20,000 nucleotides of DNA, taken from IMG/VR virus record IMGVR_UViG_3300025115_000005. One strand, written 5' to 3'. Origin of the DNA: an uncultured virus (IMG/VR IMGVR_UViG_3300025115_000005). Taxonomy: Duplodnaviria; Heunggongvirae; Uroviricota; Caudoviricetes. Shown piece by piece: positions 3,001 to 17,437 of the stretch (position 1 is its first letter; every line of letters starts with the position of its first letter). The translations under genes were made by a program, and so were the position numbers. The notes under the pieces were generated by a model. The model was not told the origin of the DNA, made no database searches, and saw only the letters and a list, made by a program, of their open reading frames with translations.

Positions 3001-6000
3001 ATCTTTAACTAGATCAGATTGATACTGCATGATGCCTTCATTTAATTTATTATAAGTATCTAGCCCAGCTGCACGAGCAGAAGATGTTTTAATGAATCGA
3101 TGCTTAAGATTATTCTTTTGCTCTGATACAAGTTTGTTGTATTCAGCATTAACTGTATTTCTTAGGGCAAGTCCTGGTGTTGTATTAATATCATTGTCAA
3201 AGCCTTGTGTATTACCTGGTTGATTCTTAGATAATACTTCAGTAGCATCTTGTTTAACTCTTGTTCTAGATCTAGCAAGCGGATACATCTTAGCTAATTC
3301 TTTAAATTTCTTACTAACCCATTGACGTTGACGTGCATCGGTAAAGAACTTAAGCACTTTTTCATCAGCGTCAAGTAAGTATAGATCTTCAATAGCTCCC
3401 ATACCTAAGTAATAGTCACCATCAGAATCTTTAATTGTATGTGATGCAAGAATATTTTGAATACTATTCTTAGCACTAAGCATTGCACTAGCTGTGGTAT
3501 CAATTAAGATACCTTCCATACGTGATTGAATGTAGTCTACTTCTTCAGAGGTTAAAGGCTCGATTGCTTTAAAGTTATAGTCTGGATTAAGATCAAACAG
3601 ATCTTGACCATTCATATAAAAGTTATCGTAAGCATCAAGTCCTGTATAACCACGGTCAGCGGTATACTTTAATGTAGCTTGCGAACGATCATAAGTAAAT
3701 GTCTTCACAAAGTCTGTGATACGTTTAGCTCTTTCATTTGAGGATAACTTAGATGTTTCACCTTCTTTAAAAAGATCAGCGACGAACTGAATAGCTCTAC
3801 TATCTTGCATAAGCTGGAATACTTTTTTAAGATTTACATTATCTAATCCTGTATTAAATTTACCAAGCTCTTCGCTCATCTTAGCACTGATCTGTAGGGT
3901 AGCTTTAAGTTTATTCTTAAGCATGATGGCTTGAGCATTGTTTCTATACTCAGGCTTATCTAGTTCAGTAAGCATATCTTTAACAGACATAGCCTTAAGA
4001 GTTAAGTCTTTGTTAACCAGGTCTTTAGTGAAAGTTAAAGTCTTATCCTTAGATTTAGCAATCTCTAGTAAGTCTTGACGACCATCAAAGCTTTGAGGTG
4101 TAAATAAGACTTCACCTGGAGTCATCATCATATTATCTGTAGCATCGAATGTCTCAGCTACTTTGTTTAAGATCTCAACTCTAGTAGATTCTAATTCTAA
4201 ATTACTTGGGATAATGTCTGTAAGTTTAATAGTTCCTGTGTAAGCTTTACTGTTACCTAATGTTTTGTTATCTTTGTTATAACCTGTTGCAATATAAACA
4301 CCTTGTTTCTTTGACTCAGCTTGGATAGTCCAGCCAAAAGCTTCAAGCATTTTAATACGAGCAGGATCAGCTTTGAACCACATAGGTTTCATTTGAGCTA
4401 TAGACTTATTCATACCGAACATACGGTTAAATCCTTCAGCCAACCATTCAAGCATCATGAAGTTATGAAGGTCTGGATCTTGCTTACCTTTAAAGTTTAA
4501 TCCACTAGTAACAGCTTCGGAATATTTACCAAAGGCTTCGGAGTTACCCCCAATCTTACCTTGTTTCTTAAGAGCTATCATGAGCATGTGGTTAACAATA
4601 CCGCTAGCGTATTTTAAATCATTTGGATCATCAAAGCTTAAATACGTACCCATTAGGTTACGTGGATTAATGATAGTGTCTTGATCAATCATGACAAAGT
4701 TGTTGAAGGCCATGTAAAGTTGTTTACCTACATCAAGGTTACGCTTGAATCCTGGCATCATTTCTAAGACAAGAGGTTCTGGAATGAAAGGCTTAGTTAA
4801 TCTGAGTCCTGTTGTTCCTCCTGTGTACTTAGTTACACCGGGGATATTTGAATCTCCTGACTGTTTAAACTCTAATGTGCTATAGCCTAAATTTTCAAGT
4901 AGACCAGCAAGTAGTTGATCTTGAGTCTTTAAATCATACTCAAGCACAGCGTTGTCTTTGTTTAAAGTAATAAGTTTATTTAGATATTGAAGCTGACGTC
5001 TAAGCTCATAGTTTGTAATGCCAAGCTCACGTGCTGCTTCTTGAATATCTTTTTCAGTAGTGCCTCTAGCTTTTTGTTCTTTAAGGATATCAATCTTTGT
5101 TTGAAGTTCTGCTTGAGCTCTACTCATAAGTGCAGAAAGATTAACTTTAACTATGTTTGAAGGTTCTACTTCGTAAGCATCGTCAAAGTAATATTGAACA
5201 TACTGCTTAGCAAACTTCTTCATCTCAGCTGCACTAACAGAAGTTAAGTTATGAGCACGAGCGTATTCATAGAAGTTAGTAAATGTTTTTGGATTTGCTT
5301 TGTATTGAGCAAGCATCTTATTTACAGCTGCCATCATGTCTGGAGATTTACTAAAAGCTTTCTTCATTGCTTTCTCTAAAGTCATACCACGTTGTTCTGT
5401 GATAGCTTCAGTAAGTTTAGCTTCTCTACCATAACCTTCTGCAATTAACGCACGCATCGTAAACTCTACTAATTCTTTAGGAGTAGTAATGTCAAAAGAC
5501 GCACGGTTTAATTTGCGGTAGTAAGTATCCATGACAAGATCATAAAGATTCATAGGTGCTTTACCTAATGCATCCATGACGACTGAGTTGTCAATGTTTC
5601 CTTCCATGTTATTACGCACTTGGTCAAAGATACTTCTGTACTCAGCTGCGTCGCTGTTACCCATGAGTTCTTTAAGTGCTTTCATAGAAGCGGATTTAGA
5701 TTTAGATGTTGTAACTAAAGTTCTAAGATTATTAAAGAAGTCATCAAACGTCGTTTGCTTAAACGTTCTGACATAAATCTTTTTACCTTTAGACTCTTTT
5801 AACTTATATAGACCAATACCAGGTGCTGATAAGTATTTCTTAACATCATTTGTTTTTAAATTCTGACCAAGGCTTTGACGCAGCACGTCAATGAACTGAT
5901 CAATGTATGTAGGTTCTTTCTTAGTAATATACGAACGAACACGTTGGATGTCTGCTTCGGGAATCAATCCTTTTAATCCAACTAAGATATCATCAAGTGA

Positions 6001-9000
6001 CACTGCACTCGATTGCTTTCTAGTAATATGGCCAGCGGCCTCAAGCTCGTTAAGAAGAGTATCAAACTCCTCAGCTCCTAAGCTCCGTCTGAGATGAACG
6101 AGTGCTATCTCAGCGGGATCTTCGAAAGTCGTATTCTCTTCGATCAGCTTCACGAGGTCGATGGTGTTGTCCTTACCAAACTTCTTAACTAGCCAGTTAA
6201 CAGTGGACTCAATTCTTTGCTCTCTGTCCCTCAAGGAGGCTGTCGACAATTGTTTCGTGCTTTCTAATAAACTTAAGAGGTCCGTAAAAGATTTACCTTT
6301 CTCCAACTTCTCTTGAATCTGTGAGTAGAATTTCTCGTTGATGTCACCATTCTTTTTCAAGTCTTCTAACTTACCATAGTTCTTCAAGTCGTTAAGTAAG
6401 CTCATCAATCTTGTAAACACAAGTTTATCTTTTACTCCTGATTTAGATGCTGCATTTGAGACTGCATCAATCTCTTGCAAGATCTCTAAGGATCTACCAT
6501 ACTTGACGAACTCATATCCTACGAATATTGATTCTTTAGATTTAATATATGCACTGAGCTCTGGAATCGAAGCCATGATATATCCTGCCGCTTCATCACT
6601 AATAGCTTTAACATCTTTATCAACAAGTCTTGCTAAGGTGAAGGCTAACTCACCTGTTCCCATCTTGTGTGAAGGGTGACCAATATTAGTCAAGACTTTT
6701 AATGCATTATATAATGTCACACCGTTTCTTGTCTTAGCATCCGTCAAAACCATGAAGGCTGTCAAGAACTTATTTGCGACGATCATACCTTCACCTGATT
6801 GTACTGCTCTATTCTCTAGGTCAGTCACGATCAAGTAAGTTGCTTCTAGTTTCGAATTATCATCTGATAGCTTAATAATGTAAGGATTATCTGGAGACTC
6901 TTGAAGTTTAGCTAATGCGTCCCAAGCTTTAATCAATCTGGATGTCTCGGCTTGGTTAGCTGCACCATCTGCTCCGTTAGGATCACCTTTAGTTTTAACT
7001 GTAATGACTGCACCACGAGTTAATGCATAAGCTGTACGTTTAGCATCACCATAGATTTCTTTAACTTTTTGAACATACTCTGGATTCGTGATGGACTCAA
7101 GCACTGATTTCAATGTGATCTTCTTACCTGTTCTAACTGCTTCAAGTAAGACTTCACTGTTTGCAATCAGCTGATCGACTGTCTTAATATCATAATGCTG
7201 TTCCATGAATCCTTTTAATGCATCATCATTCTTAATTGCATTATATGCATCATTCGCATCCATGTTAAGTAATGCACCGTATTGTTCCATGAACCTTGAA
7301 GTATCAAAGTGAATTGCCATGGCTCCACGTGCATCACGTTTCTTGATTGCACTTAAGTAATATTGTTGATGTTTGCCTAGCACAGGTATATGATCAATCG
7401 CTCTCTTTAAAAATCCTGGAGCCTCTGATGTACTCATTAAGTCAGCCCATGCTTCAGATTGTGCAGCTGCTCTTGTTTTGAACAGCACTTGTACAGCTGC
7501 TTCTTGACGAATCATCTTCTTAGCTTTCTCAGCATTGATCACATTCATCCCTAAGTCTTTAACAATAGAGTTACCACTAGCATCTGCGAAGTTAAGGTCT
7601 GCTTCATTTAAGACCTCGAGCATGGCTAAAATGCGATCGTTACCGTTCGCCTCCATTTTTGTTTTGATGGTTGTTTCTGTTTGATTGATCAGAGATCTTA
7701 AGCTGACCTCTTGTTCAAAGTTTTGATTTTTAATAGCAGCTGCTAAGCGTAAGTCTAATTCTTCACGATAGCCACTGTACCATTTAGTAACGTTTGTTGC
7801 ACCTTGGATCGCACCTAACGTACGCATACCTTCATTACCAGCGAACCCATGTGCACCCAAGTAGCTCATCAAACCAATCATCAGGACCTGGTTCGGATCA
7901 GCTAAAGACTTAAATATGTCACCTACGGTAGCTTTACCGCCGGTTGACATCATCGTTGTTCTGGATGTTAATGTCAGTGCATTCTCAATTGTATCGGCTG
8001 CAATGTTAGCAGCGTATAAGACTTTATGATGTTTAAGGAACCACTTACCTAAATTAGTTGCAATCACCTTTTGTTCAAATTTTTTAGCGACGCCATCTTT
8101 GATTGCTTGTGATACTGCTTCATCTGAGGTATTACCTAATAGTGCATAACGTGTTGCAGCACCCATGTCATCTGTACCACCCGATAATCCAAACGTAATC
8201 ACTGCATTGATCCCTGCGACCATCACAGACTTACCAAGGATCTCACTATCAGATAGACCGGTTTGATTTTGTCTTGCTTTCATGTGTGCCCACATCTCAG
8301 CTCCGTCAACCGCTAAGTTAATCAAAGCTCTTTCTGCGACGTTTGCAAATCCTCTTGAGCCTGCCTTGAAGACCGGTATCCCACCGTTAAGGTTCGTCAT
8401 GACATGCGGTACCTTGACTGCAAGCTGTGCTGCTTTCACCATGGCATGCTTAATTGTTCCTTTAGCTGTAGCGTCTGCGACCTTTGCCAGTTTATTACCA
8501 ACGGCTCCGGTGACAGCACCTAATGTGACGAACCCTACAATGTTACCAATGACGTTCGCTGCACCTAAAATCAAATTGTCAAGCTCCAAGTTGTTCGGAT
8601 CAACATGATAGACGCCAGCGTCTGGTGTCCATCCTTCTTTCCACGCCTGGTAATCAGTATACGATTCAGCAAATGTATCGTCACCCCATGATCTCACCCA
8701 TGCATAAGCCAGACCTCCTAGGTCGATGATTGAGCTTAGCCCTTGCACGAACCCGCTGAACAGGCTCATCGAAAAGTCACCAACCTCAGAGTCTCTTATG
8801 CTGATTCGATCAATCGTCCCATCTGCATTTCTGTAGACCGATGCTGTATATTTTGCCTGAGCTGCTGCCGATCCTGCATCCGCTAATGTATATAATGTCC
8901 CATCCTTGTGGAGGTACATATCTTCAATGCCATCACCATCTGTGTCTACCACTGGGTTGAACCCCATCAGCATCCCAGCTTTATGTGCTCTTAGCACTTT

Positions 9001-9648
9001 GTCCCATGATCCCATCTGCTCTGCTAGTCCGGCCTGATCTTCAAACAGATCTGCCATCACCTCCGCTGTCGCTTGTGATCCTCCCAGCTGTGCTAATAAT
9101 GATTCGCTGTATGGCTTGGCTAAAAATGTATAAAAACTCTCCGCCTGGAAGAGTGCTTCTGATTCTGCTAGTATGCTTGCAAGCGTTGCGTCACTGTCAA
9201 TCGGACTATCGTATAATCCTTGCTTTCTTCTGTTGTACCAATATAAAGGACTCGTTAAATCATGACCGTCCGCCTTCAGTATATCCTTCCCGTACATCTG
9301 ATATAAAAAGTCGTTATACCCTAGCTTCCCTGCCTCGACCATTGCCCAGGCGTCACTGACCTTTTCTTCCTTCAGTGCTAACCTTGCTTCAATCTCAAAT
9401 CCTCTCGGTGCCTTTCCAGCACTCTTCATATAATCTGAGAATCTACTTCCTGGGGCTATCCCCGCTGCCGAGTACAAACTTGTCTTGCGTACCGTCGCTT
9501 GCTCTAAGTCTTTTTCATAGAGTGGCTTCGTCGTCTCAAGAGTCGTTGTCGCCGGCGTGTAACTTTCTCGTACTACACCTGACTGTGCCTCCAATGTACC
9601 TTGCTCTTTCGCTTTGGTCTCATCCGGAGTCATTCTTCTTACGCTCAT
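1..9648 (-). CDS. Giant (>3216 aa, C-terminus outside window) putative virion-associated/ejected multidomain protein with an embedded DEDDh exonuclease domain
   Basis: ATG at 9648-9646 is preceded by RBS GAGGTGA and reads MSVRRMTPDETKAKEQG. Every block I translated (9648-8880, 8580-8160, 5040-3360, 1800-1200, 60-1) is open in the same frame. The ORF track lists no minus-strand ORF here, which fits one ORF running off the edge. The product class is inferred from size and hydrophobic Gly/Ala segments. Confidence 0.93.
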   Translation of the reverse strand, partial: MSVRRMTPDETKAKEQGTLEAQSGVVRESYTPATTTLETTKPLYEKDLEQATVRKTSLYSAAGIAPGSRFSDYMKSAGKAPRGFEIEARLALKEEKVSDAWAMVEAGKLGYNDFLYQMYGKDILKADGHDLTSPLYWYNRRKQGLYDSPIDSDATLASILAESEALFQAESFYTFLAKPYSESLLAQLGGSQATAEVMADLFEDQAGLAEQMGSWDKVLRAHKAGMLMGFNPVVDTDGDGIEDMYLHKDGTLYTLADAGSAAAQAKYTASVYRNADGTIDRISIRDSEVGDFSMSLFSGFVQGLSSIIDLGGLAYAWVRSWGDDTFAESYTDYQAWKEGWTPDAGVYHVDPNNLELDNLILGAANVIGNIVGFVTLGAVTGAVGNKLAKVADATAKGTIKHAMVKAAQLAVKVPHVMTNLNGGIPVFKAGSRGFANVAERALINLAVDGAEMWAHMKARQNQTGLSDSEILGKSVMVAGINAVITFGLSGGTDDMGAATRYALLGNTSDEAVSQAIKDGVAKKFEQKVIATNLGKWFLKHHKVLYAANIAADTIENALTLTSRTTMMSTGGKATVGDIFKSLADPNQVLMIGLMSYLGAHGFAGNEGMRTLGAIQGATNVTKWYSGYREELDLRLAAAIKNQNFEQEVSLRSLINQTETTIKTKMEANGNDRILAMLEVLNEADLNFADASGNSIVKDLGMNVINAEKAKKMIRQEAAVQVLFKTRAAAQSEAWADLMSTSEAPGFLKRAIDHIPVLGKHQQYYLSAIKKRDARGAMAIHFDTSRFMEQYGALLNMDANDAYNAIKNDDALKGFMEQHYDIKTVDQLIANSEVLLEAVRTGKKITLKSVLESITNPEYVQKVKEIYGDAKRTAYALTRGAVITVKTKGDPNGADGAANQAETSRLIKAWDALAKLQESPDNPYIIKLSDDNSKLEATYLIVTDLENRAVQSGEGMIVANKFLTAFMVLTDAKTRNGVTLYNALKVLTNIGHPSHKMGTGELAFTLARLVDKDVKAISDEAAGYIMASIPELSAYIKSKESIFVGYEFVKYGRSLEILQEIDAVSNAASKSGVKDKLVFTRLMSLLNDLKNYGKLEDLKKNGDINEKFYSQIQEKLEKGKSFTDLLSLLESTKQLSTASLRDREQRIESTVNWLVKKFGKDNTIDLVKLIEENTTFEDPAEIALVHLRRSLGAEEFDTLLNELEAAGHITRKQSSAVSLDDILVGLKGLIPEADIQRVRSYITKKEPTYIDQFIDVLRQSLGQNLKTNDVKKYLSAPGIGLYKLKESKGKKIYVRTFKQTTFDDFFNNLRTLVTTSKSKSASMKALKELMGNSDAAEYRSIFDQVRNNMEGNIDNSVVMDALGKAPMNLYDLVMDTYYRKLNRASFDITTPKELVEFTMRALIAEGYGREAKLTEAITEQRGMTLEKAMKKAFSKSPDMMAAVNKMLAQYKANPKTFTNFYEYARAHNLTSVSAAEMKKFAKQYVQYYFDDAYEVEPSNIVKVNLSALMSRAQAELQTKIDILKEQKARGTTEKDIQEAARELGITNYELRRQLQYLNKLITLNKDNAVLEYDLKTQDQLLAGLLENLGYSTLEFKQSGDSNIPGVTKYTGGTTGLRLTKPFIPEPLVLEMMPGFKRNLDVGKQLYMAFNNFVMIDQDTIINPRNLMGTYLSFDDPNDLKYASGIVNHMLMIALKKQGKIGGNSEAFGKYSEAVTSGLNFKGKQDPDLHNFMMLEWLAEGFNRMFGMNKSIAQMKPMWFKADPARIKMLEAFGWTIQAESKKQGVYIATGYNKDNKTLGNSKAYTGTIKLTDIIPSNLELESTRVEILNKVAETFDATDNMMMTPGEVLFTPQSFDGRQDLLEIAKSKDKTLTFTKDLVNKDLTLKAMSVKDMLTELDKPEYRNNAQAIMLKNKLKATLQISAKMSEELGKFNTGLDNVNLKKVFQLMQDSRAIQFVADLFKEGETSKLSSNERAKRITDFVKTFTYDRSQATLKYTADRGYTGLDAYDNFYMNGQDLFDLNPDYNFKAIEPLTSEEVDYIQSRMEGILIDTTASAMLSAKNSIQNILASHTIKDSDGDYYLGMGAIEDLYLLDADEKVLKFFTDARQRQWVSKKFKELAKMYPLARSRTRVKQDATEVLSKNQPGNTQGFDNDINTTPGLALRNTVNAEYNKLVSEQKNNLKHRFIKTSSARAAGLDTYNKLNEGIMQYQSDLVKDKVSDPGRMLITNLKDAIATGAMVNKITEIANTIRKEKILTPYDAFLTDDAVMDLAMEIYTFTSGIDNQHEYIKYLIVEAPGVKDPLTGEMREVSKLNKYYASAYQEGSSESLNDFYRVMRDLDPTKEYTVFVMDRSEQIAANKKEASAKLSTIKFKDYASFDEKNLGSKLFEAMATNVMTKGRQYAQYFDKYYTQAEDLINMELSRRVTKRALLENIRGYIKERAGVDDTFVNKLFYGGLDSDVSGSARTLNEESMLSYLKRSIESDLYDVEQNQYVKRVSSVLATGIIPEEFSDAIEFKYALDQVIDSIRKDMDPSDVNYVDGIISGESKAHRINLDELDRLSKVMNLWLSESNDMRAIQFIAKQTETPAYNLFDMIEQRRQAYTDTVATEKETIKLAELGARKKVFLDLEVALRDDNVTNELLQIGAVYEGADKSTRSFNVHARAEQDVFNAAEYSSWRKFLKEKNIDAEVRSQQATAIRKSDALAQFVKFINELDDDVVFMAHNGKQADLEWIKALLGETHPVYLKIKGNFIDTLELMRDYTFLGFTDRNAIDSLKYNMDVLSNHPRIAERVKALREELGTRGHDASQDAHVLRILSEEMLNSDNFLNMNLYNTSLLNKFKQIYADLGHKFATDEEFLKELEKIAPYVGVKGLESNDFTKSAASKKQLDGKQLKAVQDALSEYQLQMERYYSSREFFSYTKETLEKEQLFLKAVSEGGNVEINKMLTYLFERYQGESTYRLTKDFGQNESNIKDFSNMLYEIMRMTREVYGTKIRWTENLVNDKAAMSRESISMSTDSMNRFLYAAAKDQEAFLNIMKSSGLFNNLSIEDYRNYQKPTVDVRSVVDAYKMSDALKASFLTEELYDIADRSFRSLDVINKGLLESIEEVQPGYKQWVMEQLSTFSNKNINETASERNLRAMLSTHRFESRLISNIKQYIKDGTPLHQMTMPRYWGLVTAMQKDYTMPDGSRAFRIKNVEGGYTYYNEIPQGTIVLSDY
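1201..1790 (-). other. DEDDh (DnaQ/RNase T-like) 3'-5' exonuclease domain inside the giant ORF
   Basis: Translation gives ExoI KKVFLDLEV..ELLQIGAV, ExoII VVFMAHNGKQADLEWI, the FIDTLEL segment and ExoIII GHDASQDAHVL. All catalytic residues are present in the expected order and spacing. Confidence 0.88.
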
Positions 9649-9669
9649 TGATCTCACCTCTTAGTTCCT

Positions 9670-9697
9670 ATTATAGCACAAAGGGGTTCTCTGTCAC
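9670..9697 (-). promoter_or_regulatory. SigA/sigma70-type promoter with extended -10 for the giant gene
   Basis: Minus strand reads GTGACA-N16-TATAAT, with TGTG-c immediately before TATAAT, about 20 nt upstream of the ATG and just upstream of the RBS. Confidence 0.7.
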
Positions 9698-9715
9698 TAC
9701 GATTTTGTGAAATTT

Positions 9716-9970
9716 AAGGGAGGGTATGCTAGAAGTATATATAGAAGGGTATATTCCCATATATATGTAGAAGTAGTATAGAAGGGTAGTAGTGAAGAGG
9801 TGGGGGGTGGTATCACTAGTGTCCAATTACTAAATACCTCTCTCACCTCTCACTCTCTATAACACTTAACCATACCCTTACATATACATAGTCACCATTA
9901 ACCACTTGACTATATTAAGATAGATTAAACATACTCATATCATATCTCATTCATATAATCTATCACGTAT
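9716..9970. repeat. Low-complexity strand-asymmetric block (G/A-rich then C-rich) with short TAGAAG(GG)TA repeats
   Basis: 9716-9812 has very few C and contains TAGAAGTA/TAGAAGGGTA four times plus a G6 run. 9825-9965 has very few G. Confidence 0.7.
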
Positions 9971-10282
9971 CGATCTCCGCATTTGATTCACACCCAAGCC
10001 CTAGTGGCGTCTGAACGCCCTACTCGATTGAGCGGAAGATAAAGACCGGCTGGGTAGCTAGAGGTAGCTGGGAAAGTTTCACTGAGCTGTGGATGACATT
10101 CGCCTGTTCCGAACCTTATCGAGATGCCCCCTGGTTTATGGCCCGTGAAGCGATGGTCAAGCTTAAGCCTTGTAACAACACGTGGTGTCTTAGGGATTTC
10201 TTCCTACTCGTAGTGATCTTTAAGTTCAGTTCCTTTGCTAAGGTTAGTTAGTTATTCCTTACTCGGAATTATGTTAACCTCT
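9971..10282. ncRNA. Possible structured non-coding RNA or cis-element, family not recognised
   Basis: GC-richer intergenic stretch with no credible ORF and several hairpins: TCCGC/GCGGA enclosing GGCGT-CTGA-ACGCC; TAGGGA-TTTC-TTCCTA; ATTCC-TTACTC-GGAAT; CCTT-TGCT-AAGG. Confidence 0.3.
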
Positions 10283-10440
10283 TATTTATATATGGCAAGT
10301 ACCCTTGCTTTGTACTGGTTTAGGTATATGTTAAGTGTTGGCAGAGTGTATTTTCTGTGTGTGGAGTGGGTGTGTGTGCTAGCATTCTCTTCCCTACATA
10401 AACCATGTACTTGAGTGGTCAGTAGGTTTACATAATCCGT

Positions 10441-10640
10441 TTGTCCACAATGTGGAATAACTACAAACTTTTTCCTCAAAATGAACTTTGTAATAAGACC
10501 ACAATGTGGAATGGTTAAACATGCATTTTTTAATATATATATATATATTACTTTTTGTATGATACGAATAATAGTGTCCACAGTGTGGAATAAAAACATT
10601 TCCATACAAAAGTTTTCCTAAAGATTCCACAATATGGACA
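10441..10640. promoter_or_regulatory. Four palindromic protein-binding-like sites (TCCACAnTGTGGA) flanking a (TA)n tract; candidate replication origin or operator array
   Basis: Copies at 10444-10456, 10498-10510, 10577-10589 and 10626-10638. An AT-only tract at about 10525-10550 lies between copies 2 and 3. Confidence 0.65.
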
Positions 10641-10652
10641 GGTTTTACTATG

Positions 10653-10740
10653 GTGAATGGCACTGGTCCTAACATCCCTTGAGTTTGGGTGTATGGATAG
10701 AGCAGTGTCGTTCACGATGGTATAAACCGTCAGAAAGGAG
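10653..10740 (+). promoter_or_regulatory. Structured leader of the small-gene cluster (long hairpin, short hairpin, RBS)
   Basis: GTGAATGGCACTG (10653-10665) pairs with CAGTGTCGTTCAC (10703-10715) using two G.U pairs. It is followed by GATGGT-ATAA-ACCGTC and RBS GAAAGGAG. Confidence 0.55.
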
Positions 10741-10747
10741 ATTTCGT

Positions 10748-10993
10748 ATGGGTGAACAAAGATTCGTTAGTATTATCTTCAGAAGTAAAGATGGAAGCGT
10801 CTTTCAATTTGATGAAGAGATCGATGGTAGTTGCAGAGTTTTCTTTGCGAACTGTCGAGATTACAGTGAACGTTTCATTCCGATGTCAGCTGTCTATGAT
10901 AGATATGATAGTTTGATAAAGAGTGGCTGGCGTTTAGACAAGAGTAACATAACTAAAGATGAACTTTTTGAATTGTGTCTTTCATTATGTTAG
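10748..10993 (+). CDS. Hypothetical small phage protein (81 aa)
   Basis: ORF track entry 10679-10993, with the start moved to ATG 10748 behind RBS AAAGGAG. Confidence 0.85.
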   Translation: MGEQRFVSIIFRSKDGSVFQFDEEIDGSCRVFFANCRDYSERFIPMSAVYDRYDSLIKSGWRLDKSNITKDELFELCLSLC

Positions 10994-11078
10994 AGAGAGT
11001 TTCGGCTCTCTTCATCTGAGCACATCAGCGATGGTGTGTTGAGATGAGGTATGAAGCCTCAAGAAAGAGAAGGAAAAA
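10994..11078 (+). repeat. Structured intergenic spacer, type A
   Basis: AGAGAGT-TTCG-GCTCTCT; CATCT-G-AGCACATCA-GCGA-TGGTGTGTT-G-AGATG; GAGGT-ATGAA-GCCTC; purine-rich RBS. Near-identical to 12373-12459. Confidence 0.92.
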
Positions 11079-11369
11079 ATGAGAACGTTATTTTCAAAAT
11101 GGTCATACGAATTAAGTATGACAGAAACTTTGTTAGTGAGCATGGTTTATAATAAACCAACAAATGCTCACATGTTCACGAAAGTCTCTGAGGTGTTTGT
11201 TCACCACGAAGGGACTTTTATTTTAGTTGAATGGCGATTTGATGAGGATATCTATAAGCCAGCGTATGGCTTTAGATTTGCTCTCATAAGTCCATTAGAT
11301 GTAGTGTTTTTTGCTGTAGATGAAATACCTGCAGCAATAAATATTCAACGTCTAATAAATGTTGAATAA
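11079..11369 (+). CDS. Hypothetical small phage protein (96 aa)
   Basis: ORF with an AAGGA RBS supplied by spacer A; fills the space between spacers A and B. Confidence 0.85.
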   Translation: MRTLFSKWSYELSMTETLLVSMVYNKPTNAHMFTKVSEVFVHHEGTFILVEWRFDEDIYKPAYGFRFALISPLDVVFFAVDEIPAAINIQRLINVE

Positions 11370-11370
11370 A

Positions 11371-11464
11371 AAGGGAGCTTCGGCTCTCTTCACTTGAAGA
11401 CCTATCATTGTATAGATCTTGAAGTGTGGAGAGTAGAACTTCACAAGAAAAAAGGAGAATTACA
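11371..11464 (+). repeat. Structured intergenic spacer, type B
   Basis: AAGGGAGC-TTCG-GCTCTCTT; CACTT-G-AAGACCTAT-CATTGT-ATAGATCTT-G-AAGTG; GTGGAG-AGTAGAA-CTTCAC; RBS AAGGAG. 11375-11452 is identical to 12097-12174. Confidence 0.92.
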
Positions 11465-11692
11465 ATGGAAGTTTATTTTTTTGCAGATATGTTAAAGGAT
11501 GTTGTTTTTGTATCATTGCATGGTCGTGGTCAATCAACATGCGATGATTACTATGATATTGCCTGTCATGTTAGAGGTCATGATGGTTGGACACATTACT
11601 TTCATGATCTTAATATTGCCAAGGCATATGGTGAACTTCTGGTGTCTTATGGTTATACCTATAAGATATCGATAATTCTAAATGTGATTTGA
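11465..11692 (+). CDS. Hypothetical small phage protein (75 aa)
   Basis: ORF track entry 11426-11692, with the start moved to ATG 11465 behind RBS AAGGAG. Confidence 0.85.
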   Translation: MEVYFFADMLKDVVFVSLHGRGQSTCDDYYDIACHVRGHDGWTHYFHDLNIAKAYGELLVSYGYTYKISIILNVI

Positions 11693-11695
11693 TTA

Positions 11696-11800
11696 GAGGA
11701 TATTTTCCTCCTCTTTTCTTGAACCAGTTAGTTTATGACTGGTTGAAGAATAGAGTAAAATCTCTATATGAAAAATAAATTTTCCTGGAAGGAGGAAAAA
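11696..11800 (+). repeat. Structured intergenic spacer, type C (divergent sequence, same fold)
   Basis: GAGGA-TATTT-TCCTC; TTCTT-G-AACCAGTTA-GTTTA-TGACTGGTT-G-AAGAA; ATAGAG-TAAAAT-CTCTAT; RBS AAGGAGG. Confidence 0.8.
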
Positions 11801-12088
11801 ATGAATAAAGAAAACATGTTTAGACTTTATGAATTACTAACAACTATTGTGAAAGGCAATAAGAAAGTAAATTTCTGTTCATTGCACTTTACAAACAGTC
11901 ATAAAGAAGAATGTCATTACTACATAAGTTTAACACCTATGAAAAATTCTTATGATAGCATTGACATTACTACTTCATTGGTTGATAGTGATTTTTATGA
12001 AGTCGAATATGGATATGGTAAATATCGTAGTTTAACTTTCGATGATTGTGTATCATTTGTTAAAAATATGATTGAAGCCAAATTCTAA
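11801..12088 (+). CDS. Hypothetical small phage protein (95 aa)
   Basis: ORF track entry 11768-12088, with the start moved to ATG 11801 behind AAGGAGG. Confidence 0.85.
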   Translation: MNKENMFRLYELLTTIVKGNKKVNFCSLHFTNSHKEECHYYISLTPMKNSYDSIDITTSLVDSDFYEVEYGYGKYRSLTFDDCVSFVKNMIEAKF

Positions 12089-12093
12089 TTGAT

Positions 12094-12187
12094 AGAGAGC
12101 TTCGGCTCTCTTCACTTGAAGACCTATCATTGTATAGATCTTGAAGTGTGGAGAGTAGAACTTCACAAGAAAAAGGAAGGTATAGGC
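12094..12187 (+). repeat. Structured intergenic spacer, type B (second copy, B')
   Basis: 78-bp core identical to spacer B, 722 bp upstream. Confidence 0.92.
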
Positions 12188-12370
12188 ATGGAAAAGGTTT
12201 GGTTGTTAGTAGAAACTAACGATAAGTCTGAAGTATTTAGTATCAGAGTTTATGGTAGTAAATTGTCAGCTCTTGAAGCTTACTATGGTTACATGTCCAA
12301 TGTAGATAACGTTGATTATCGTAATTGGAAACGTATCCTTGTGATTGCTGAACAAGAAATTATTAAATGA
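12188..12370 (+). CDS. Hypothetical small phage protein (60 aa)
   Basis: MEKVWLLVETND...; start moved from 12089 to ATG 12188 behind AAGGAAGG. Confidence 0.82.
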   Translation: MEKVWLLVETNDKSEVFSIRVYGSKLSALEAYYGYMSNVDNVDYRNWKRILVIAEQEIIK

Positions 12371-12372
12371 TT

Positions 12373-12459
12373 GAGAGCTGAGGCTCTCTTCATCTGAGCA
12401 CATCAGCGATGGTGTGTTGAGATGAGGTAAGGAGCCTCAAGAAAGAGAAGGAGAAAGAC
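12373..12459 (+). repeat. Structured intergenic spacer, type A (second copy, A')
   Basis: 12382-12429 is identical to 11004-11051 (offset 1378). Differences within the structured part lie in hairpin loops and one closing pair. Confidence 0.92.
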
Positions 12460-12801
12460 ATGTTAGAATTATTGGTTGTCATGTTTGCTTTCTTGGCAAG
12501 CATATTTCTTCAGGCATTCATGGTGAATGTTCCTGTTGGAGAAGCTAAGGTTGATTGTGATATCAACATTGAAGATGTAATAAATAGACACGGTAAGATC
12601 ATCAGCTTTGAGGATTGCGATTATCCGGACGATGACTACGTCGATGATATGTTATTACCTAAGCATGAGTCTGTTAGTGTAGAGATAGCTCATAAGCATA
12701 GTAAGCATCGTAAGTATAAAGATCGTCTGTATGATAAACGTTGTCTTGGTCAGCAACCTAAGTATAAGAACCGTGTGTGGAGTAGGAAGTATGGCTCGTA
12801 A
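12460..12801 (+). CDS. Hypothetical protein with N-terminal hydrophobic (TM/signal-like) segment and basic C-terminus (113 aa)
   Basis: RBS AAGGAG; begins MLELLVVMFAFLASIFLQAFMV; acidic middle; Lys/Arg/His-rich tail. Confidence 0.8.
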   Translation: MLELLVVMFAFLASIFLQAFMVNVPVGEAKVDCDINIEDVINRHGKIISFEDCDYPDDDYVDDMLLPKHESVSVEIAHKHSKHRKYKDRLYDKRCLGQQPKYKNRVWSRKYGS

Positions 12802-13174
12802 TCTTACCTTAGAGAAAGTCAACAATACGTTTGGCTACTCAAGATTTAATTGCATGGGCTATGCCCTAGACACTCCAGATTGGATGTATGTAAGTATCAT
12901 CGATAGTGATATGAAACATTTTGGTTACGAACGCTGTGAGTTTGCTGACATCATCCTTGGTAAGTATGAAGGCATAGCCTATCGTTATGGTTCTTGTGAT
13001 TGGCATTTTGCATATATAGCAGTGGATGGTTCAATCACTCATAAGCCTGGATGTATGCTGGTTCAGACAATGACAACGGAGGAGTTACTTTATCCTGAGG
13101 GTTGGTGTGCTACTCCGCTCGGTTATTACTATGATTCACCTATTACATTTTATAGAAGGGAGGTGAAACAATGA
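12791..13174 (+). CDS. Putative papain-like (Cys-His) peptidase/amidase-fold protein (127 aa)
   Basis: Motifs FNCMGYAL, DWHF and DGSITHKPG resemble the NCxxYA..D[YW]HF..DGxWSHKPG pattern I recall from small papain-fold proteins. Start ATG 12791 behind AGGAAG. Confidence 0.55.
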   Translation: MARNLTLEKVNNTFGYSRFNCMGYALDTPDWMYVSIIDSDMKHFGYERCEFADIILGKYEGIAYRYGSCDWHFAYIAVDGSITHKPGCMLVQTMTTEELLYPEGWCATPLGYYYDSPITFYRREVKQ

Positions 13175-13365
13175 ACGCTAGTGCTTTAAGTTGGCATCGG
13201 CTTGGCAAATGTCATCCTGCTAAAGGGTTTAAGTATTATGCTACAGTTATCTCTCGTAACTTAACTGAAGAATCATGGACACAATACTTTAATGACAAGG
13301 ATCTAAGAGATGAATACGTGAAGAGTCTTGAGAAAGACTATGTTGTTTTAAGTGGTCAGAAATAA
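13171..13365 (+). CDS. Hypothetical protein (64 aa)
   Basis: RBS GGAGGTG; ATGA overlap with the upstream stop. Confidence 0.85.
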   Translation: MNASALSWHRLGKCHPAKGFKYYATVISRNLTEESWTQYFNDKDLRDEYVKSLEKDYVVLSGQK

Positions 13366-13374
13366 GGAGGACTT

Positions 13375-13845
13375 ATGAAGAAACAATATTTTAAAGAGAC
13401 GGATTATGTCAAGCCTAATGGTCTATCATTACAAGATGTACTGATGGGACCTTTGCTTGATCATTTGATTCCGTTCACTATTGTCGTTTATGACATGAAG
13501 ACAAACACATCTACGAAAGATCAACGTGAGATTAAATGGGATACTAAGTATCTATCACGTCGTGTGTTTGCGTTCAGCCTCGAAGAAAAAGACGGACATC
13601 GTACAGTTACATTTGATGTAGAATCAGCTCGACCTTTGACAGATAAACGTCTGTTCAGAGTAAGACCTACTAAGACGTTCTTTTTTAAAGAGGACCAGAG
13701 GGTAGGTGTTGATGTAACTTATCGTGGTTCAATAGTGTTCGTTGCTGTTGATAAGAAAGATGCTGAAAGATATATCAATGTATTTATTCAAGGCGTCCTA
13801 CATACCCTGACTGGTGTGTTGATTGATCAATACTTTAAGAGATAG
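13375..13845 (+). CDS. Hypothetical protein (156 aa)
   Basis: RBS AAGGAGG; clean ORF. Confidence 0.88.
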   Translation: MKKQYFKETDYVKPNGLSLQDVLMGPLLDHLIPFTIVVYDMKTNTSTKDQREIKWDTKYLSRRVFAFSLEEKDGHRTVTFDVESARPLTDKRLFRVRPTKTFFFKEDQRVGVDVTYRGSIVFVAVDKKDAERYINVFIQGVLHTLTGVLIDQYFKR

Positions 13846-13854
13846 TTGAAAGAT

Positions 13855-13888
13855 AAAGCATGGCTAAATATGGTCATGCTTTTGATTT
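13855..13888 (+). terminator. Putative intrinsic terminator
   Basis: AAAGCATGGCTA-AATA-TGGTCATGCTTT followed by TGATTT, just after the stop at 13845. Confidence 0.55.
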
Positions 13889-13954
13889 GAGCTAAGTGCT
13901 CTTACTAAGTCTACCCGAGACAGTCGGTACTACACATGTAGGGAAAGGTCAACC

Positions 13955-14209
13955 ATGACAAAGAAATGGTTAAAGAAATTGTCTGAGGAAGCAGTTCATA
14001 ACTTGCTTCAAGAATGTGCTGAGTCTGAGCTTAACAATCAATCTTATGTTGTTAAGTTAGAAGACGGTAAGTTTGTGTACTATGACAAAGTCACACAACT
14101 TGTTAGCCATATCATTAGTGTACGCAGTGAAAAGACTGTGTTGATTGATGCACTACAGTTTACTAATGACAGCAGACAATTAAATAAGATTCAAACTATG
14201 CTACAATAA
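13955..14209 (+). CDS. Hypothetical protein (84 aa)
   Basis: RBS GGAAAGGT; clean ORF. Confidence 0.82.
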   Translation: MTKKWLKKLSEEAVHNLLQECAESELNNQSYVVKLEDGKFVYYDKVTQLVSHIISVRSEKTVLIDALQFTNDSRQLNKIQTMLQ

Positions 14210-14313
14210 AAGTAGCATTGTTTGTGGAGATAGCCATCCTCTCGGGGATGACTTGATCTAGAGACATATGAGCTCTCGTCAGTGAAGACAGATAAAACTC
14301 AAGGAGAATCTAC

Positions 14314-14517
14314 ATGGGATATACTGTAGGTACTATTTTAAAGGGACGATTTGTTTCGTCATTAGAGACTAAGAATCGTGGTAAAGCTTTCGAACATGGC
14401 AAGAAGATTGCTTCGCTTGGTGTGACAGGTATCATCACACAGGATGATGTCTATCCATCAAAGACTTATCACGTTCACTTGAGACCTACTAAAGGTTTCT
14501 ATATTGAACGTGTATGA
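14314..14517 (+). CDS. Hypothetical protein (67 aa)
   Basis: RBS AAGGAG; ATGA coupling to the next gene. Confidence 0.82.
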   Translation: MGYTVGTILKGRFVSSLETKNRGKAFEHGKKIASLGVTGIITQDDVYPSKTYHVHLRPTKGFYIERV

Positions 14518-14738
14518 AGCCAGGAGATAAGGTTGTTGTTCGCATGGATGTAGGTTTGTATGTGCCTACATATCGTTCAGTCCATGCTATTATTGTTGAG
14601 CAAGATCATCAGCTTGCAGTTCAGACAGATCGTGGTGTCACTTTGATTGATACAATCATTCCTTATATGGACATTATTTCAGAGGATCAATTCAATCGAG
14701 ATGATCCTAATCTTTATAGTGGTGTCTTATACCTATGA
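14514..14738 (+). CDS. Hypothetical protein (74 aa), possibly SH3/KOW-like beta fold
   Basis: Start MKPGDKVVVR is typical of small beta-barrel proteins; ATGA overlaps on both sides. Confidence 0.78.
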   Translation: MKPGDKVVVRMDVGLYVPTYRSVHAIIVEQDHQLAVQTDRGVTLIDTIIPYMDIISEDQFNRDDPNLYSGVLYL

Positions 14739-14941
14739 GCATACTCTATAAGTATGATGGTGCGGTTTGGAATGGCGATGTCATTTATAAAACCGTGGTC
14801 GAGTATGTTCATGCTCATGACAAACGACACGCTATTGTGCTATTAGAAAGACGTCTTAAGTCTAAGTATCCAGAGATATCGTTTGTTCATTTGCGTGAAT
14901 CAAACTTATCCGTTGTCCCTAAACGGACACAAGAGGGCTAA
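14735..14941 (+). CDS. Hypothetical protein (68 aa)
   Basis: ATGA overlap with the upstream gene; followed by a terminator-like hairpin. Confidence 0.8.
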   Translation: MSILYKYDGAVWNGDVIYKTVVEYVHAHDKRHAIVLLERRLKSKYPEISFVHLRESNLSVVPKRTQEG

Positions 14942-14958
14942 GTATGGCCCTTTTTATT
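14931..14958 (+). terminator. Putative intrinsic terminator
   Basis: AGGGCTA-AGTA-TGGCCCT followed by TTTTATT. Confidence 0.65.
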
Positions 14959-14988
14959 ATATGATTTGTCTACAAGGAGGACAGATAT

Positions 14989-15279
14989 ATGGATGATCAA
15001 GTAACAAAACCTGTCAATGAGCTTATGGATTTGTTCATTGGTTGTGGTTTTAAGCTTGAACGTAAGGAAGAGGGTAGTCATTTACATCTTATCTTTACGA
15101 TGCGAACTTATCGCTTCAAGTTTAATATCAACCATCAAACACGTAAGCTAGTAGGTGTTGAGGTCCCACGCATGGTGTGGACAGGTTGGATTGATAAAGA
15201 AGTTGGTCAATTAAAACTAACTAATATAGTTGGTGTGATGGACAAACTCTTGGTAAGTGGAGGTTATAAGAGTGCCTAA
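14989..15279 (+). CDS. Hypothetical protein (96 aa)
   Basis: RBS AAGGAGG. Confidence 0.87.
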   Translation: MDDQVTKPVNELMDLFIGCGFKLERKEEGSHLHLIFTMRTYRFKFNINHQTRKLVGVEVPRMVWTGWIDKEVGQLKLTNIVGVMDKLLVSGGYKSA

Positions 15280-16594: not shown

Positions 16595-16598
16595 GGAG

Positions 16599-16694
16599 GA
16601 AAACATGAACGGTTTATTTATTAGTAAATTATTACGTGCTATTGAGCAAGCTTATCAAATGGAAGATGGGGAGCTCGATGCATTTGTCAATGAG
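16599..16694 (+). repeat. 96-bp exact direct repeat, copy 1 (6 nt upstream plus first 30 codons)
   Basis: Identical base for base to 17342-17437. Confidence 0.97.
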
Positions 16695-17196: not shown

Positions 17197-17343
17197 ATGG
17201 AACAGTATGAAGCTTATAAGTACAGTAGTAAAGAGTGGGCACTATGGGGTAAAACCTGTAAGTGCCCTATTGTTTTTGGGACAAAGAAACGTATGCAAGA
17301 GCTAGCAAAAGAGCTTAATAAAAAAGAAAGAGAAGGTAGATGA
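17197..17343 (+). CDS. Small hypothetical protein (48 aa)
   Basis: RBS GAGGAGG before ATG 17197 (the track starts at 17146). Confidence 0.75.
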   Translation: MEQYEAYKYSSKEWALWGKTCKCPIVFGTKKRMQELAKELNKKEREGR

Positions 17344-17437
17344 AAACATGAACGGTTTATTTATTAGTAAATTATTACGTGCTATTGAGCAAGCTTATCA
17401 AATGGAAGATGGGGAGCTCGATGCATTTGTCAATGAG
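17342..17437 (+). repeat. 96-bp exact direct repeat, copy 2
   Basis: Identical to 16599-16694; offset 743 bp. Confidence 0.97.

What the first reader, a model, noticed from the sequence alone, without database searches (positions are those of the whole stretch)
10994..12459. Array of single small genes separated by structured spacers with one conserved fold and an invariant TGA/TGA G.G mismatch
Seen: five consecutive intergenic regions (A 10994, B 11371, C 11696, B' 12094, A' 12373) each contain a short hairpin H1 (TTCG loop in three), a long hairpin H2, a short hairpin H3 and the RBS of the next gene. The H2 sequences of A, B and C differ, yet all keep 5'-T-G-A-3' opposite 5'-T-G-A-3' (a single G.G mismatch) about 9 bp below the loop: CATCT-G-AGCAC../..GTGTT-G-AGATG, CACTT-G-AAGAC../..ATCTT-G-AAGTG, TTCTT-G-AACCA../..TGGTT-G-AAGAA. 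Differences between copies fall in loops (TTCG vs TGAG, ATGAA vs AAGGA) or swap G.U for Watson-Crick pairs, which points to selection on + strand structure. Known analogues: RNase III processing stems between early genes of T7 and SP82/SPO1, PeSL stem-loop cassettes of T4-type phages, and structure-defined integron attC sites. Inference: this is an undescribed structure-defined signal that cuts a polycistronic early transcript into monocistronic units, is read by a phage-encoded enzyme, or acts as a cassette recombination site.
Basis: partly seen in the sequence, partly recalled or inferred. Interest (0 to 1): 0.88.

Follow-up and report, generated by a model that had tools for sequence, protein, structure and literature searches.

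The report
Structured spacers between phage early genes
Five folded RNA spacers that separate the small early genes of an unknown phage most likely mark where the early message is cut and its new ends capped, a known kind of signal in a new form built around an invariant G·G mismatch.

Summary
Five consecutive spacers (A, B, C, B', A'; 10994-12459) each hold a stop-proximal hairpin H1, a long hairpin H2 and a hairpin H3 before the next ribosome-binding site. All keep U-G-A opposite U-G-A, a single G·G mismatch, exactly 9 stem positions below the loop. A sixth copy, from a distant relative in an activated-sludge contig (L084), keeps the same base and mismatch with a different apical stem.

Evidence for a sense-strand RNA structure:
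- Sense folds better than antisense in 8 of 8 hairpins tested.
- 9 of 22 model pairs carry compensatory changes.
- No Rfam family matches.

New points:
- H1 and H3 can merge with H2 into one 23-32 bp rod, which is the equilibrium fold.
- A similar rod sits in the leader of the first gene.
- The 9-position upper stem above a discontinuity matches what I computed for the phage T7 early intergenic hairpins.
- Contig depths hint that part of the population lacks the B-B' interval.

Best reading (0.5): processing and stabilising signals for a double-strand-specific RNase, RNase III type, in an early operon. The operon lies next to a 5434-aa protein that carries a DFDGD motif. No cleavage is shown. 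I rate it a new variant of a known kind.

The parts
10637..10731 (+). Leader rod hairpin just upstream of the ribosome-binding site of the first early gene. It contains a G.G mismatch with U-A on its outer side. It would be the counterpart of a leader-removing processing site.
   Evidence: -49.2 kcal/mol, z -5.8, 0 of 200 shuffles as stable. (row 'leader'); sense -48.4 against antisense -28.4.
10748..10993 (+). Early gene g1 (81 aa), the only small gene with known relatives.
   Evidence: 45% identity to the L084 protein; 3 proteins found among 3 candidates in the 5.8-billion-protein collection. No Pfam, PHROG or NCBIfam family.
10994..11078 (+). Spacer A. H1 core 10995-11010 (UUCG loop, U.G closing pair); H2 11010-11049 with G.G at 11018/11041; H3 11045-11061; rod form 10995-11060; purine-rich ribosome-binding site before ATG 11079.
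11370..11464 (+). Spacer B. H1 11373-11388 (C-UUCG-G); H2 core 11391-11426 with G.G at 11396/11421, U.U at -6 and C.A at +5; H3 11425-11445; rod form 11374-11442.
11693..11800 (+). Spacer C. H1 11696-11710, or 11695-11714 in the other register; rod 11711-11755 with G.G at 11721/11745 and U.U at -6; H3 11750-11767; a further hairpin 11780-11798 that covers the GGAGG ribosome-binding site.
   Evidence: H1 of C is the only spacer hairpin scored terminator-like.
12089..12187 (+). Spacer B', a copy of B. H1 12095-12110; H2 core 12113-12148 with G.G at 12118/12143; H3 12147-12167; rod form 12097-12164.
12371..12459 (+). Spacer A', a copy of A. H1 12373-12388 (UGAG loop); H2 12388-12427 with G.G at 12396/12419; H3 12423-12439; rod form 12379-12439, 26 pairs.
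   Evidence: A variant A-type contig in the sample keeps the hairpin through G.U to A-U and C-G to U.G changes.
11079..12801 (+). Single small genes between the spacers: g2 11079-11369, g3 11465-11692, g4 11801-12088, g5 12188-12370, g6 12460-12801. Each has its own strong ribosome-binding site. The genes that follow copies of the same spacer type are not similar to one another.
13855..13882 (+). 12-bp hairpin followed by a U-rich run, after the tightly packed genes g6-g9. It is a candidate end of this early transcription unit.
   Evidence: fold.
10444..10638 (+). Three good copies and one degenerate copy of a small palindrome-plus-tail motif (5-bp stem, 3-nt loop, then AAT) upstream of the leader, at 10444-10456, 10499-10509, 10577-10589 and 10626-10638. 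They are candidate early promoters or operator sites.
   Evidence: family D5; sequence. No sigma-70-like hit lies there on the + strand.

Best explanation
The five spacers, and probably the leader hairpin before g1, are RNA punctuation modules of a phage early operon.

How the model works:
- The operon is transcribed rightward from about 10.45 kb to a hairpin-plus-U run near 13.88 kb.
- Each spacer folds on the sense RNA into a long imperfect rod of 23-32 pairs. The rod has a 9-position upper stem, an invariant G.G mismatch flanked by U-A and A-U, and a sequence-conserved base.
- A double-strand-specific endoribonuclease, most likely the host's RNase III, cuts at or near the mismatch, one helical turn below the loop. 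This separates the cistrons.
- The basal rod then falls apart. Each arm is itself a palindrome and refolds. H1 (often C-UUCG-G) caps the new 3' end of the upstream message. H3 caps the new 5' end of the downstream message, just ahead of an open ribosome-binding site.

What is shown: the structures, their strand preference, covariation, invariants, alternative folds and geometry.

What is inferred: transcription as one unit, the cut itself, the enzyme, and the refolding.
For: Position. Every element starts 0-6 nt after a stop codon and ends at the next ribosome-binding site.

RNA and strand. The sense fold is more stable than the antisense fold in 8 of 8 hairpins, by 3.0-20 kcal/mol with RNA parameters. 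With DNA parameters the differences shrink and one reverses. 1-5 G.U pairs occur per element.

Covariation. 9 of 22 pairs change on both sides, 0 of 500 shuffles reach this, and slid controls are far lower. The four families use different pairs at upper-stem positions +3 to +9.

Geometry. The mismatch lies 9 stem positions below the loop in A, B, C and L84-1, and a G.G lies 10 pairs below the loop in L84-2. Four of the five T7 early intergenic hairpins that I folded have a 9-10 bp upper stem above an internal loop.

Operon layout. Repeated motifs come first, then a leader rod, gene-spacer units, and a final hairpin plus U run. This parallels the T7 early region as annotated.

Capping. When each element is cut in silico at the mismatch, the upstream piece ends in H1 (-9.7 to -12.9 kcal/mol) in 6 of 6. 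The downstream piece begins with a hairpin 4-6 nt from its end (H3 alone scores -6.7 to -7.5 in A, A', B and B') in 6 of 6.

No rival signal. The spacers contain no sigma-70-like promoter hit, and only H1 of C is terminator-like. No 7-mer is shared by three or more independent upstream regions. No Rfam family matches at E up to 1.
Against: No RNA data exist. The only public run that holds the sequence is DNA contigs. The host is unknown, so the presence of RNase III is not known.

The discontinuity is a symmetric 1x1 G.G mismatch, not the asymmetric internal loop of the T7 sites. A motif symmetric about a single mismatch does not fit the 2-nt stagger of RNase III cuts, which is centred between two pairs (my reasoning).

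The H2 core alone is short in B and C, 15 positions. A substrate of two helical turns needs the rod, and the rod competes with H1, which is transcribed first. With H1 enforced the fold is 0.4-8.8 kcal/mol less stable.

The base of the element is identical in 26 of 26 and 16 of 16 letters between B' and the L084 copy, while the adjacent proteins share 45% identity. That points to a sequence-specific reader or to recent exchange, and RNase III requires neither.
Confidence: 0.5

Rival explanations
1. The spacers are uncut structural insulators. The folded RNA stays in the polycistronic message. It blocks 3' exonucleases and 5'-end-dependent decay, denies Rho a loading site in 85-110 nt of untranslated RNA, and uncouples translation of neighbouring genes.
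For: The same structural evidence applies. The ribosome-binding sites are left unpaired in 4 of 5 minimum-energy folds. H1 sits where a terminating ribosome would unwind it, 0-6 nt after the stop codon.
Against: This does not explain an invariant mismatch at a fixed distance from the loop. It does not explain why the base is conserved in sequence rather than only in pairing. It does not explain why both arms are themselves palindromes.
Confidence: 0.15
2. A phage-encoded, sequence-specific factor reads the elements. It would be a dimeric RNA-binding protein or endonuclease that recognises the symmetric YUGAR/YUGAR duplex with its G.G, or the giant injected protein itself. The result would be cutting, pausing or anti-termination.
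For: The motif is two-fold symmetric about the mismatch. The base sequence is nearly invariant across phages whose neighbouring protein is 45% identical. G.G recurs in every rod found, including L84-2 and the leader. The lineage is very isolated and its proteins are unknown: 0 families for the small genes.
Against: No candidate protein was identified. T7 processing sites also share primary sequence around the cut, as visible in the folds, so sequence conservation alone does not require a special reader.
Confidence: 0.12
3. The spacers serve mainly as recombination substrates. They would define single-gene cassettes and let early genes be gained, lost and shuffled, as described for T4-type promoter-stem-loop cassettes or integron attC sites.
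For: The repeats stop at the gene borders, and the genes that follow copies of the same spacer type are unrelated. In L084 the g1 homologue is followed by a B-type spacer where the window has the A type. Contig depths are 45.2 for the flanks, 40.9 for g2, 16.6 for g3-C-g4, 39.8 for g5 and 55.4 for the shared B core. This fits a majority of genomes with one B copy and no g3-C-g4.
Against: Homologous recombination between 90-nt direct repeats is expected whatever their function. Depth per contig is a weak measure and no joint was seen (table 5: none). No recombinase turned up among 22 proteins. The attC core sites and bulged bases are absent and the mismatches are symmetric. There is no sigma-70-type promoter of the kind found in T4 cassettes. 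Recombination does not need a sense-strand fold with G.U pairs.
Confidence: 0.1
4. Each small gene is its own transcription unit. H1 would be a terminator, and a promoter for the injected polymerase would lie in or after H2, as proposed in earlier notes of this scan for other phages with giant polymerases.
For: The neighbouring 5434-aa protein carries DFDGD, the catalytic motif of virion polymerases of crAss-like phages (abstract of 10.1101/2020.03.07.982082, seen in the listing). H1 is followed by a pyrimidine-rich run. Earlier notes e1-6019249 and e1-4260144 describe per-gene units elsewhere (unchecked AI notes).
Against: No sequence motif is shared by the spacers, the g1 upstream region and the later intergenic regions. 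The repeated motif upstream of g1 does not occur in the spacers. Only 1 of 5 H1 hairpins scores as terminator-like. The structure favours the non-template strand.
Confidence: 0.08
5. The spacers are a new self-cleaving ribozyme, or a neutral leftover of duplication with no function.
For: The RNA is compact, conserved and multi-helix, and matches no known family.
Against: No junction or conserved unpaired core exists beyond one mismatch. Neutrality is contradicted by compensatory changes and by the clustering of the A/A' differences in loops.
Confidence: 0.05

Closest known systems
RNase III processing signals of the phage T7 early transcript (R0.3, R0.5, R1, R1.1, R1.3; names and map positions recalled from Dunn and Studier 1983, not annotated in the record I fetched)
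   Same: Both are hairpins between early cistrons, with one also in the leader. Both have an upper stem of 9-10 pairs above a discontinuity. Both show a sequence-conserved region around the discontinuity with a more variable apex. The operon layout is the same: repeated upstream signals, punctuated genes and a final terminator.
   Different: Here the discontinuity is a symmetric single G.G mismatch, not an asymmetric internal loop. Here the basal arms are themselves palindromes, so a rod and a three-hairpin form compete. There is no sequence similarity. Host and enzyme are unknown and cleavage is not shown.
Bs-RNase III sites in Bacillus phage SP82 early mRNA (Panganiban and Whiteley 1983; Mitra and Bechhofer 1994; I saw only their citation in PMC4838370)
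   Same: Both are repeated, related hairpins between early genes of a phage. The strong Shine-Dalgarno sites here would suit a comparable host.
   Different: I could not see the SP82 sequences or cleavage positions, so no feature-by-feature comparison was made.
Promoter-early stem-loop (PeSL) cassettes of T4-type phages (recalled: Arbiol et al. 2010; not read here)
   Same: Near-identical intergenic repeats flank single small unknown genes in an early region. There are signs of gain or loss of the genes between two repeats.
   Different: No sigma-70-type promoter lies in the spacers. The structure here is long, covarying and sense-strand specific.
Integron attC sites (recalled)
   Same: Both are defined by fold more than by sequence, with a conserved base, a variable apex and single-gene units.
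   Different: There are no inverse core sites, no bulged extrahelical bases and no integrase in the window. The preferred strand is the mRNA-sense strand with RNA-type features such as C-UUCG-G and G.U pairs.

Membership tests
T7-type RNase III processing signal | Lies between cistrons, or in the leader, of a co-oriented early gene block | tested here: met
   All 5 spacers and the leader rod lie between stop and start codons of co-oriented small genes. That they are transcribed as one unit is inferred.
T7-type RNase III processing signal | About two helical turns of mostly double-stranded RNA, with an upper stem of about 9-10 pairs above an internal discontinuity | tested here: met
   The upper stem has 9 positions in all 4 families and the rods have 23-32 pairs. 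T7 hairpins folded the same way show 9-10 pairs in 4 of 5. The rod competes with H1.
T7-type RNase III processing signal | Asymmetric internal loop at the cleavage site | tested here: not met
   The discontinuity is a symmetric 1x1 G.G mismatch.
T7-type RNase III processing signal | Cut by RNase III in vivo or in vitro | not testable with these tools
   No RNA run is listed and the host is unknown.
T4-type PeSL cassette | Early sigma-70-type promoter inside each repeat | tested here: not met
   None of the 16 promoter-like hits in 9600-15200 lies in a spacer.
T4-type PeSL cassette | Near-identical repeats flanking single small ORFs, with recombination between repeats | tested here: inconclusive
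   The repeats flank single ORFs. The depth of the B-B' interval is 16.6 against 40-45 for its neighbours, but no joint was seen.
Integron attC | Inverse core sites, bulged extrahelical bases and a nearby integron integrase | tested here: not met
   The motif occurs as a direct repeat (TGA twice) and the mismatches are symmetric. No integrase family was found among 22 proteins.
Intrinsic terminator | G+C-rich hairpin followed directly by a U run | tested here: not met
   Only H1 of spacer C is scored (2 overlapping hits). A, A', B and B' have none.
N4-type hairpin promoter | Stem of 5-7 bp with a 3-nt loop on the template strand, and conserved loop bases | tested here: not met
   The H1 loops are 4-8 nt and vary (UUCG, UGAG, UAUUU). 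The folds favour the non-template strand. The feature list is recalled from the N4 literature; PMC4496689 was seen only in the listing.
Any Rfam family, including self-cleaving ribozymes | Match to a curated covariance model | tested here: not met
   The search of the whole window at E up to 1 gave one irrelevant sub-threshold hit (REN-SRE, 19.8 bits against a gathering score of 41).

The most novel reading that the evidence does not exclude
The elements are a new class of 'cut-and-refold' RNA punctuation. A bistable nested palindrome presents a two-fold symmetric YUGAR/YUGAR duplex with a G.G mismatch to a dedicated dimeric endonuclease. That enzyme would be encoded by this phage lineage or delivered with its giant injected protein, not host RNase III. 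Once cut, the element snaps into two end-capping hairpins. The same modules would double as exchange points for early-gene cassettes.
Probability: 0.12. Interest if true: 0.8.

Novelty: new variant of a known kind. Interest (0 to 1): 0.5.

Why it matters
If the reading holds, it adds a clean example of how phages punctuate early polycistronic messages. The example has only a few defining parts: a 9-position upper stem, one G.G mismatch and a conserved base. The rod versus three-hairpin design suggests a testable rule: the same RNA first offers a double-stranded substrate and then protects both products. That would be useful for understanding message stability in phages and as a compact part for separating genes in engineered operons. 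The element sits in a lineage with almost no known relatives, whose 5434-aa protein carries the catalytic motif of injected two-barrel RNA polymerases. It therefore also marks out the likely first-expressed genes of an unexplored phage group.

Tried and rejected
Searches for relatives:
- The whole genome is not held.
- blastn 'distant' of 9700-14500 against 50,697 phage records gave no match.
- tblastn of 3000 aa of the giant protein against the same records gave no match.
- IMG/VR pattern scans gave 0 loci, 30 loci with 0 relatives, and 8 loci with 0 relatives.
- IMG/VR protein scans found none confirmed.
- The genome-contig scan for H1 plus four further bases gave 6 loci with 0 relatives. 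These were only generic hairpins, some of them terminators in Clostridia.
1 of the 119 (L084) is a true relative.
- The record behind L084 is not held for wider reading.
- The DNA of the 77-kb contig, of P0005 and of P0002 could not be fetched because the look-up by protein is closed.

Other negative results:
- No RNA holder is listed for the sequence.
- The G+C-rich non-coding stretch 9955-10255 is no more folded than shuffles on either strand (z +1.7 and +1.3), so I dropped the idea that it is a non-coding RNA.
- The idea that the two TGA triplets close all three reading frames holds for A and B but not for C (hand count), so I dropped it.
- A sigma-70 reading of TTGAAG as a -35 box fails because no -10 box follows at the right distance.
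- A 1001-aa part of the giant protein around DFDGD gave no PDB chain below E 0.14 and no PHROG family.
- BLASTP of that region against P0002 gave only non-significant collinear pieces.
- The Atlas look-up of the last 900 window-encoded residues gave only a lead below 0.9, to a DnaQ-like exonuclease cluster.
- The covariance model R1 found no further copy in the window. The best unrelated site scored 10.1 bits at E 0.42. It also did not pick up L84-2 or the leader rod, which share the design but not the sequence.
- The outer rod helices could not be counted on one alignment because A, A' and B use different registers.
Full report
WHAT IS THERE

The window holds the first 3219 codons of a giant minus-strand gene (1-9657). 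After it come about 1.1 kb without genes, and then a rightward block of small genes.

Spacers A and A' are 88% identical over 95 nt. B and B' are 94% identical over 93 nt. C is single. The repeats stop at the gene borders, and the genes that follow copies of the same spacer type are not similar to each other.

From H1 to the ribosome-binding site, A and A' differ at 5 places. Four lie in the H1 and H3 loops, one turns a U.G closing pair into C-G, and none lies in the 40-nt H2. B and B' differ at one place, G.U to A-U in H1.

IS IT MORE THAN CHANCE?

- The five spacers fold with z-scores of -5.5, -3.9, -5.3, -2.6 and -5.9.
- A scan of both strands of the window for hairpins with TGA opposite TGA gave 7 hits. 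Five strong ones are exactly the five spacers and two weak ones lie elsewhere. Random sequences gave 1.8 on average.
- A covariance model built from six elements found nothing else in the window. The six score 73.5-85.3 bits, their antisense strands at most 26.4 bits, and the best unrelated site 10.1 bits.
- Rfam at E up to 1 gave only an irrelevant sub-threshold hit.

A RELATIVE

It is L084, from a 1149-nt activated-sludge contig.

On its minus strand a homologue of g1 (45% identity) is followed by a spacer whose H1 and base match B' in 26 of 26 and 16 of 16 letters. The apical stem and loop are entirely different but have the same length.

The same L084 spacer carries a second, unrelated rod hairpin (L84-2) with two G.G mismatches, one of them again U-G-A opposite U-G-A.

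No other relative was found in the phage records, IMG/VR or the species genomes. The g1 family has only three variants among 5.8 billion proteins.

ANATOMY

I anchored every element on the mismatch, which gives a gap-free structural alignment. In A, A', B, B', C and L84-1:
- Position 0 is G.G, position -1 is U-A and position +1 is A-U.
- The upper stem has 9 positions in all four sequence families. Different Watson-Crick or wobble pairs occupy the same positions; for example +6 is A-U, C-G, G-C and A-U.
- B, C and L84-1 share a U.U at -6.

On the model-fitted alignment, 90.0% of 130 cells pair and 9 of 22 pairs change on both sides. 0 of 500 shuffles reach this, and slid controls stay at 41.5-56.9% paired with 0-3 such pairs. 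Two caveats apply: there are only about four independent sequences, and the alignment leans towards the model.

The fold belongs to the sense strand. With RNA parameters, sense is more stable than antisense in 8 of 8 hairpins, by 3.0-20 kcal/mol, and each contains 1-5 G.U pairs. With DNA parameters the differences shrink and one reverses. Three H1 hairpins have the UUCG loop, two of them with a C-G closing pair, a combination that I recall as especially stable in RNA.

H1 and H3 are not independent of H2. The loop and 3' arm of H1 are complementary to the H3 region, so the whole spacer can form one rod of 23-32 pairs broken by 1x1 mismatches. This rod is the minimum-energy fold in A, A', B, B' and L84-1.

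Enforcing H1 costs 0.4-8.8 kcal/mol of ensemble energy. The equilibrium share of H1 ranges from 0.5 in A to about one in a million in L84-1.

Three of the five A/A' differences create new pairs in the rod of A'. The B/L84-1 differences include a G-C to A-U exchange in the outermost rod helix (my reading). In the other direction, the B/B' difference improves H1 and breaks a rod pair. Both forms therefore have some support.

The design is a nested palindrome. When each element is cut in silico at the mismatch, the upstream piece ends in H1 (-9.7 to -12.9 kcal/mol) in 6 of 6, and the downstream piece begins with H3 4-6 nt from its end in 6 of 6.

SURROUNDINGS

- The leader of g1 is itself a long rod (10637-10731; -49.2 kcal/mol; z -5.8) with a G.G mismatch.
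- Upstream of it lie three good copies and one degenerate copy of a small palindrome-plus-tail motif.
- After g6 the genes are packed without spacers. At 13855-13882 a 12-bp hairpin with a U-rich tail follows.
- No sigma-70-like promoter hit lies in any spacer, and only H1 of C looks like a terminator.
- No 7-mer is shared by three or more independent upstream regions.

The giant gene product is the N-terminal part of a 5434-aa protein. Only one distant relative was found, 5246 aa long (2 hits among 7998 candidates). Both carry DFDGD at collinear places. That is the catalytic motif reported for the large virion-packaged RNA polymerases of crAss-like phages (abstract and passages of 10.1101/2020.03.07.982082). 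A giant tail-protein-fused polymerase transcribes the pre-early genes of phage P23-45 (abstract and passages of 10.1101/2022.12.01.518664). I could not confirm the fold, so 'injected polymerase' remains a lead. It fits the reading of the small genes as early genes.

MECHANISM

The closest working model is the early region of phage T7. I fetched T7 and folded its five early intergenic regions. Four of the five show a 9-10 bp upper stem above an internal loop, with conserved sequence around the loop and a more variable apex. That these hairpins are the RNase III sites is recalled from the literature, because the record carries no such feature.

The spacers here have the same place, the same upper-stem length and the same pattern of conservation. 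I therefore think it most likely (0.5) that a double-strand-specific RNase, probably host RNase III, cuts the rod near the mismatch, and that H1 and H3 then cap the two new ends.

The cut, the enzyme and the refolding are inferences. The evidence against this reading:
- The mismatch is symmetric, unlike the T7 loop.
- The symmetry is centred on a base, unlike RNase III's stagger.
- The rod must compete with the early-folding H1.
- The near-perfect conservation of the base across distant phages suggests either a sequence-specific reader or recent exchange.

EXCHANGE OF CASSETTES

The Logan contigs of the only public run that holds the sequence break at the repeats. Their depths are 45.2 for the flanks, 40.9 for g2, 16.6 for g3-C-g4, 39.8 for g5 and 55.4 for the shared B core. 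These figures fit a population in which most genomes carry one B copy and lack g3-C-g4.

Depth per contig is a weak measure, no joint was reported, and the sample may be the one the window came from. This is a hint only.

A second A-type contig in the same run differs from A' by G.U to A-U, by C-G to U.G, and by loop changes (my reading). It may be a strain variant or a further copy outside the window.

Together with the B-type spacer after g1 in L084, this shows that the spacers behave as exchange points. Any 90-nt direct repeats would do so.

COMPARISON AND NOVELTY

Earlier notes of this scan list many phages with covarying hairpins between early genes, read as RNase III-type sites. They also list per-gene promoter units next to giant polymerases. 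These are unchecked AI notes, which I used as leads only.

The kind of signal is therefore not new. The new features here are:
- the invariant G.G in a symmetric U-G-A/U-G-A setting at a fixed 9 positions from the loop;
- the nested-palindrome design with two competing folds;
- a base conserved far beyond the neighbouring genes;
- the isolated lineage in which it occurs.

I rate it a new variant of a known kind, with interest 0.5.

Noticed in passing
window 1-9657 (-): This is the N-terminal 3219 aa of a 5434-aa protein (P0001). Its only relative found is a 5246-aa protein, 24% identical over the N-terminal query region and 29% over about 950 C-terminal residues. Both carry DFDGD at collinear places (3282 and 3067, outside the window). 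There is also a weak DnaQ-like exonuclease signal at residues about 2618-2763. It is possibly a giant injected two-barrel RNA polymerase. No fold was confirmed.
   Followed up: partly
window 9670-9697 (-): The best sigma-70-like promoter match of the region (11 of 12, with a TG extension) lies 13 nt upstream of the giant gene's start. This suggests the giant gene is read by the host polymerase.
   Followed up: no
window 10444-10456, 10499-10509, 10577-10589, 10626-10638 (+): Three good copies and one degenerate copy of a small palindrome (5-bp stem, 3-nt loop AAT or AGT) followed by AAT, spaced 54 and 79 nt apart, sit just upstream of the leader rod of the first early gene. They are candidate early promoters or operator sites. 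The motif does not occur in the spacers.
   Followed up: partly
window 9955-10255: A G+C-richer non-coding stretch lies between the giant gene and the early block. Neither strand folds better than shuffles (z +1.7 and +1.3), so nothing points to a structured RNA.
   Followed up: yes
window 16596-16694 and 17339-17437 (+): A 99-nt duplication (99% identical) gives two neighbouring genes (196 aa and 330 aa) the same ribosome-binding site and the same first 30 residues. After that the proteins are unrelated. It looks like a gene inserted or exchanged by recombination at a shared 5' end.
   Followed up: partly
L084 163-223 (-): A second rod hairpin (L84-2) lies in the same spacer of the relative. 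It is unrelated in sequence to A, B or C, has two G.G mismatches and one U.U mismatch, and one G.G is again U-G-A opposite U-G-A.
   Followed up: partly
window 11427-12126, run X1: The contig that covers g3-C-g4 has depth 16.6 against 40-45 for its neighbours. A variant contig carries one extra A after 12169, as in spacer B. This may indicate a B/B' recombinant subpopulation.
   Followed up: partly
window 14931-14954 and 13855-13882 (+): Two hairpins with U-rich tails follow gene ends further down the block. They are likely terminators that bound transcription units.
   Followed up: no
window 18609-19379 and 19413-20000 (+): An HNH endonuclease-like gene (PHROG 1891, E 1.2e-14) lies directly before the start of a UvrD/AAA_19-type helicase gene. 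These are the only proteins of the plus-strand block with family matches.
   Followed up: no
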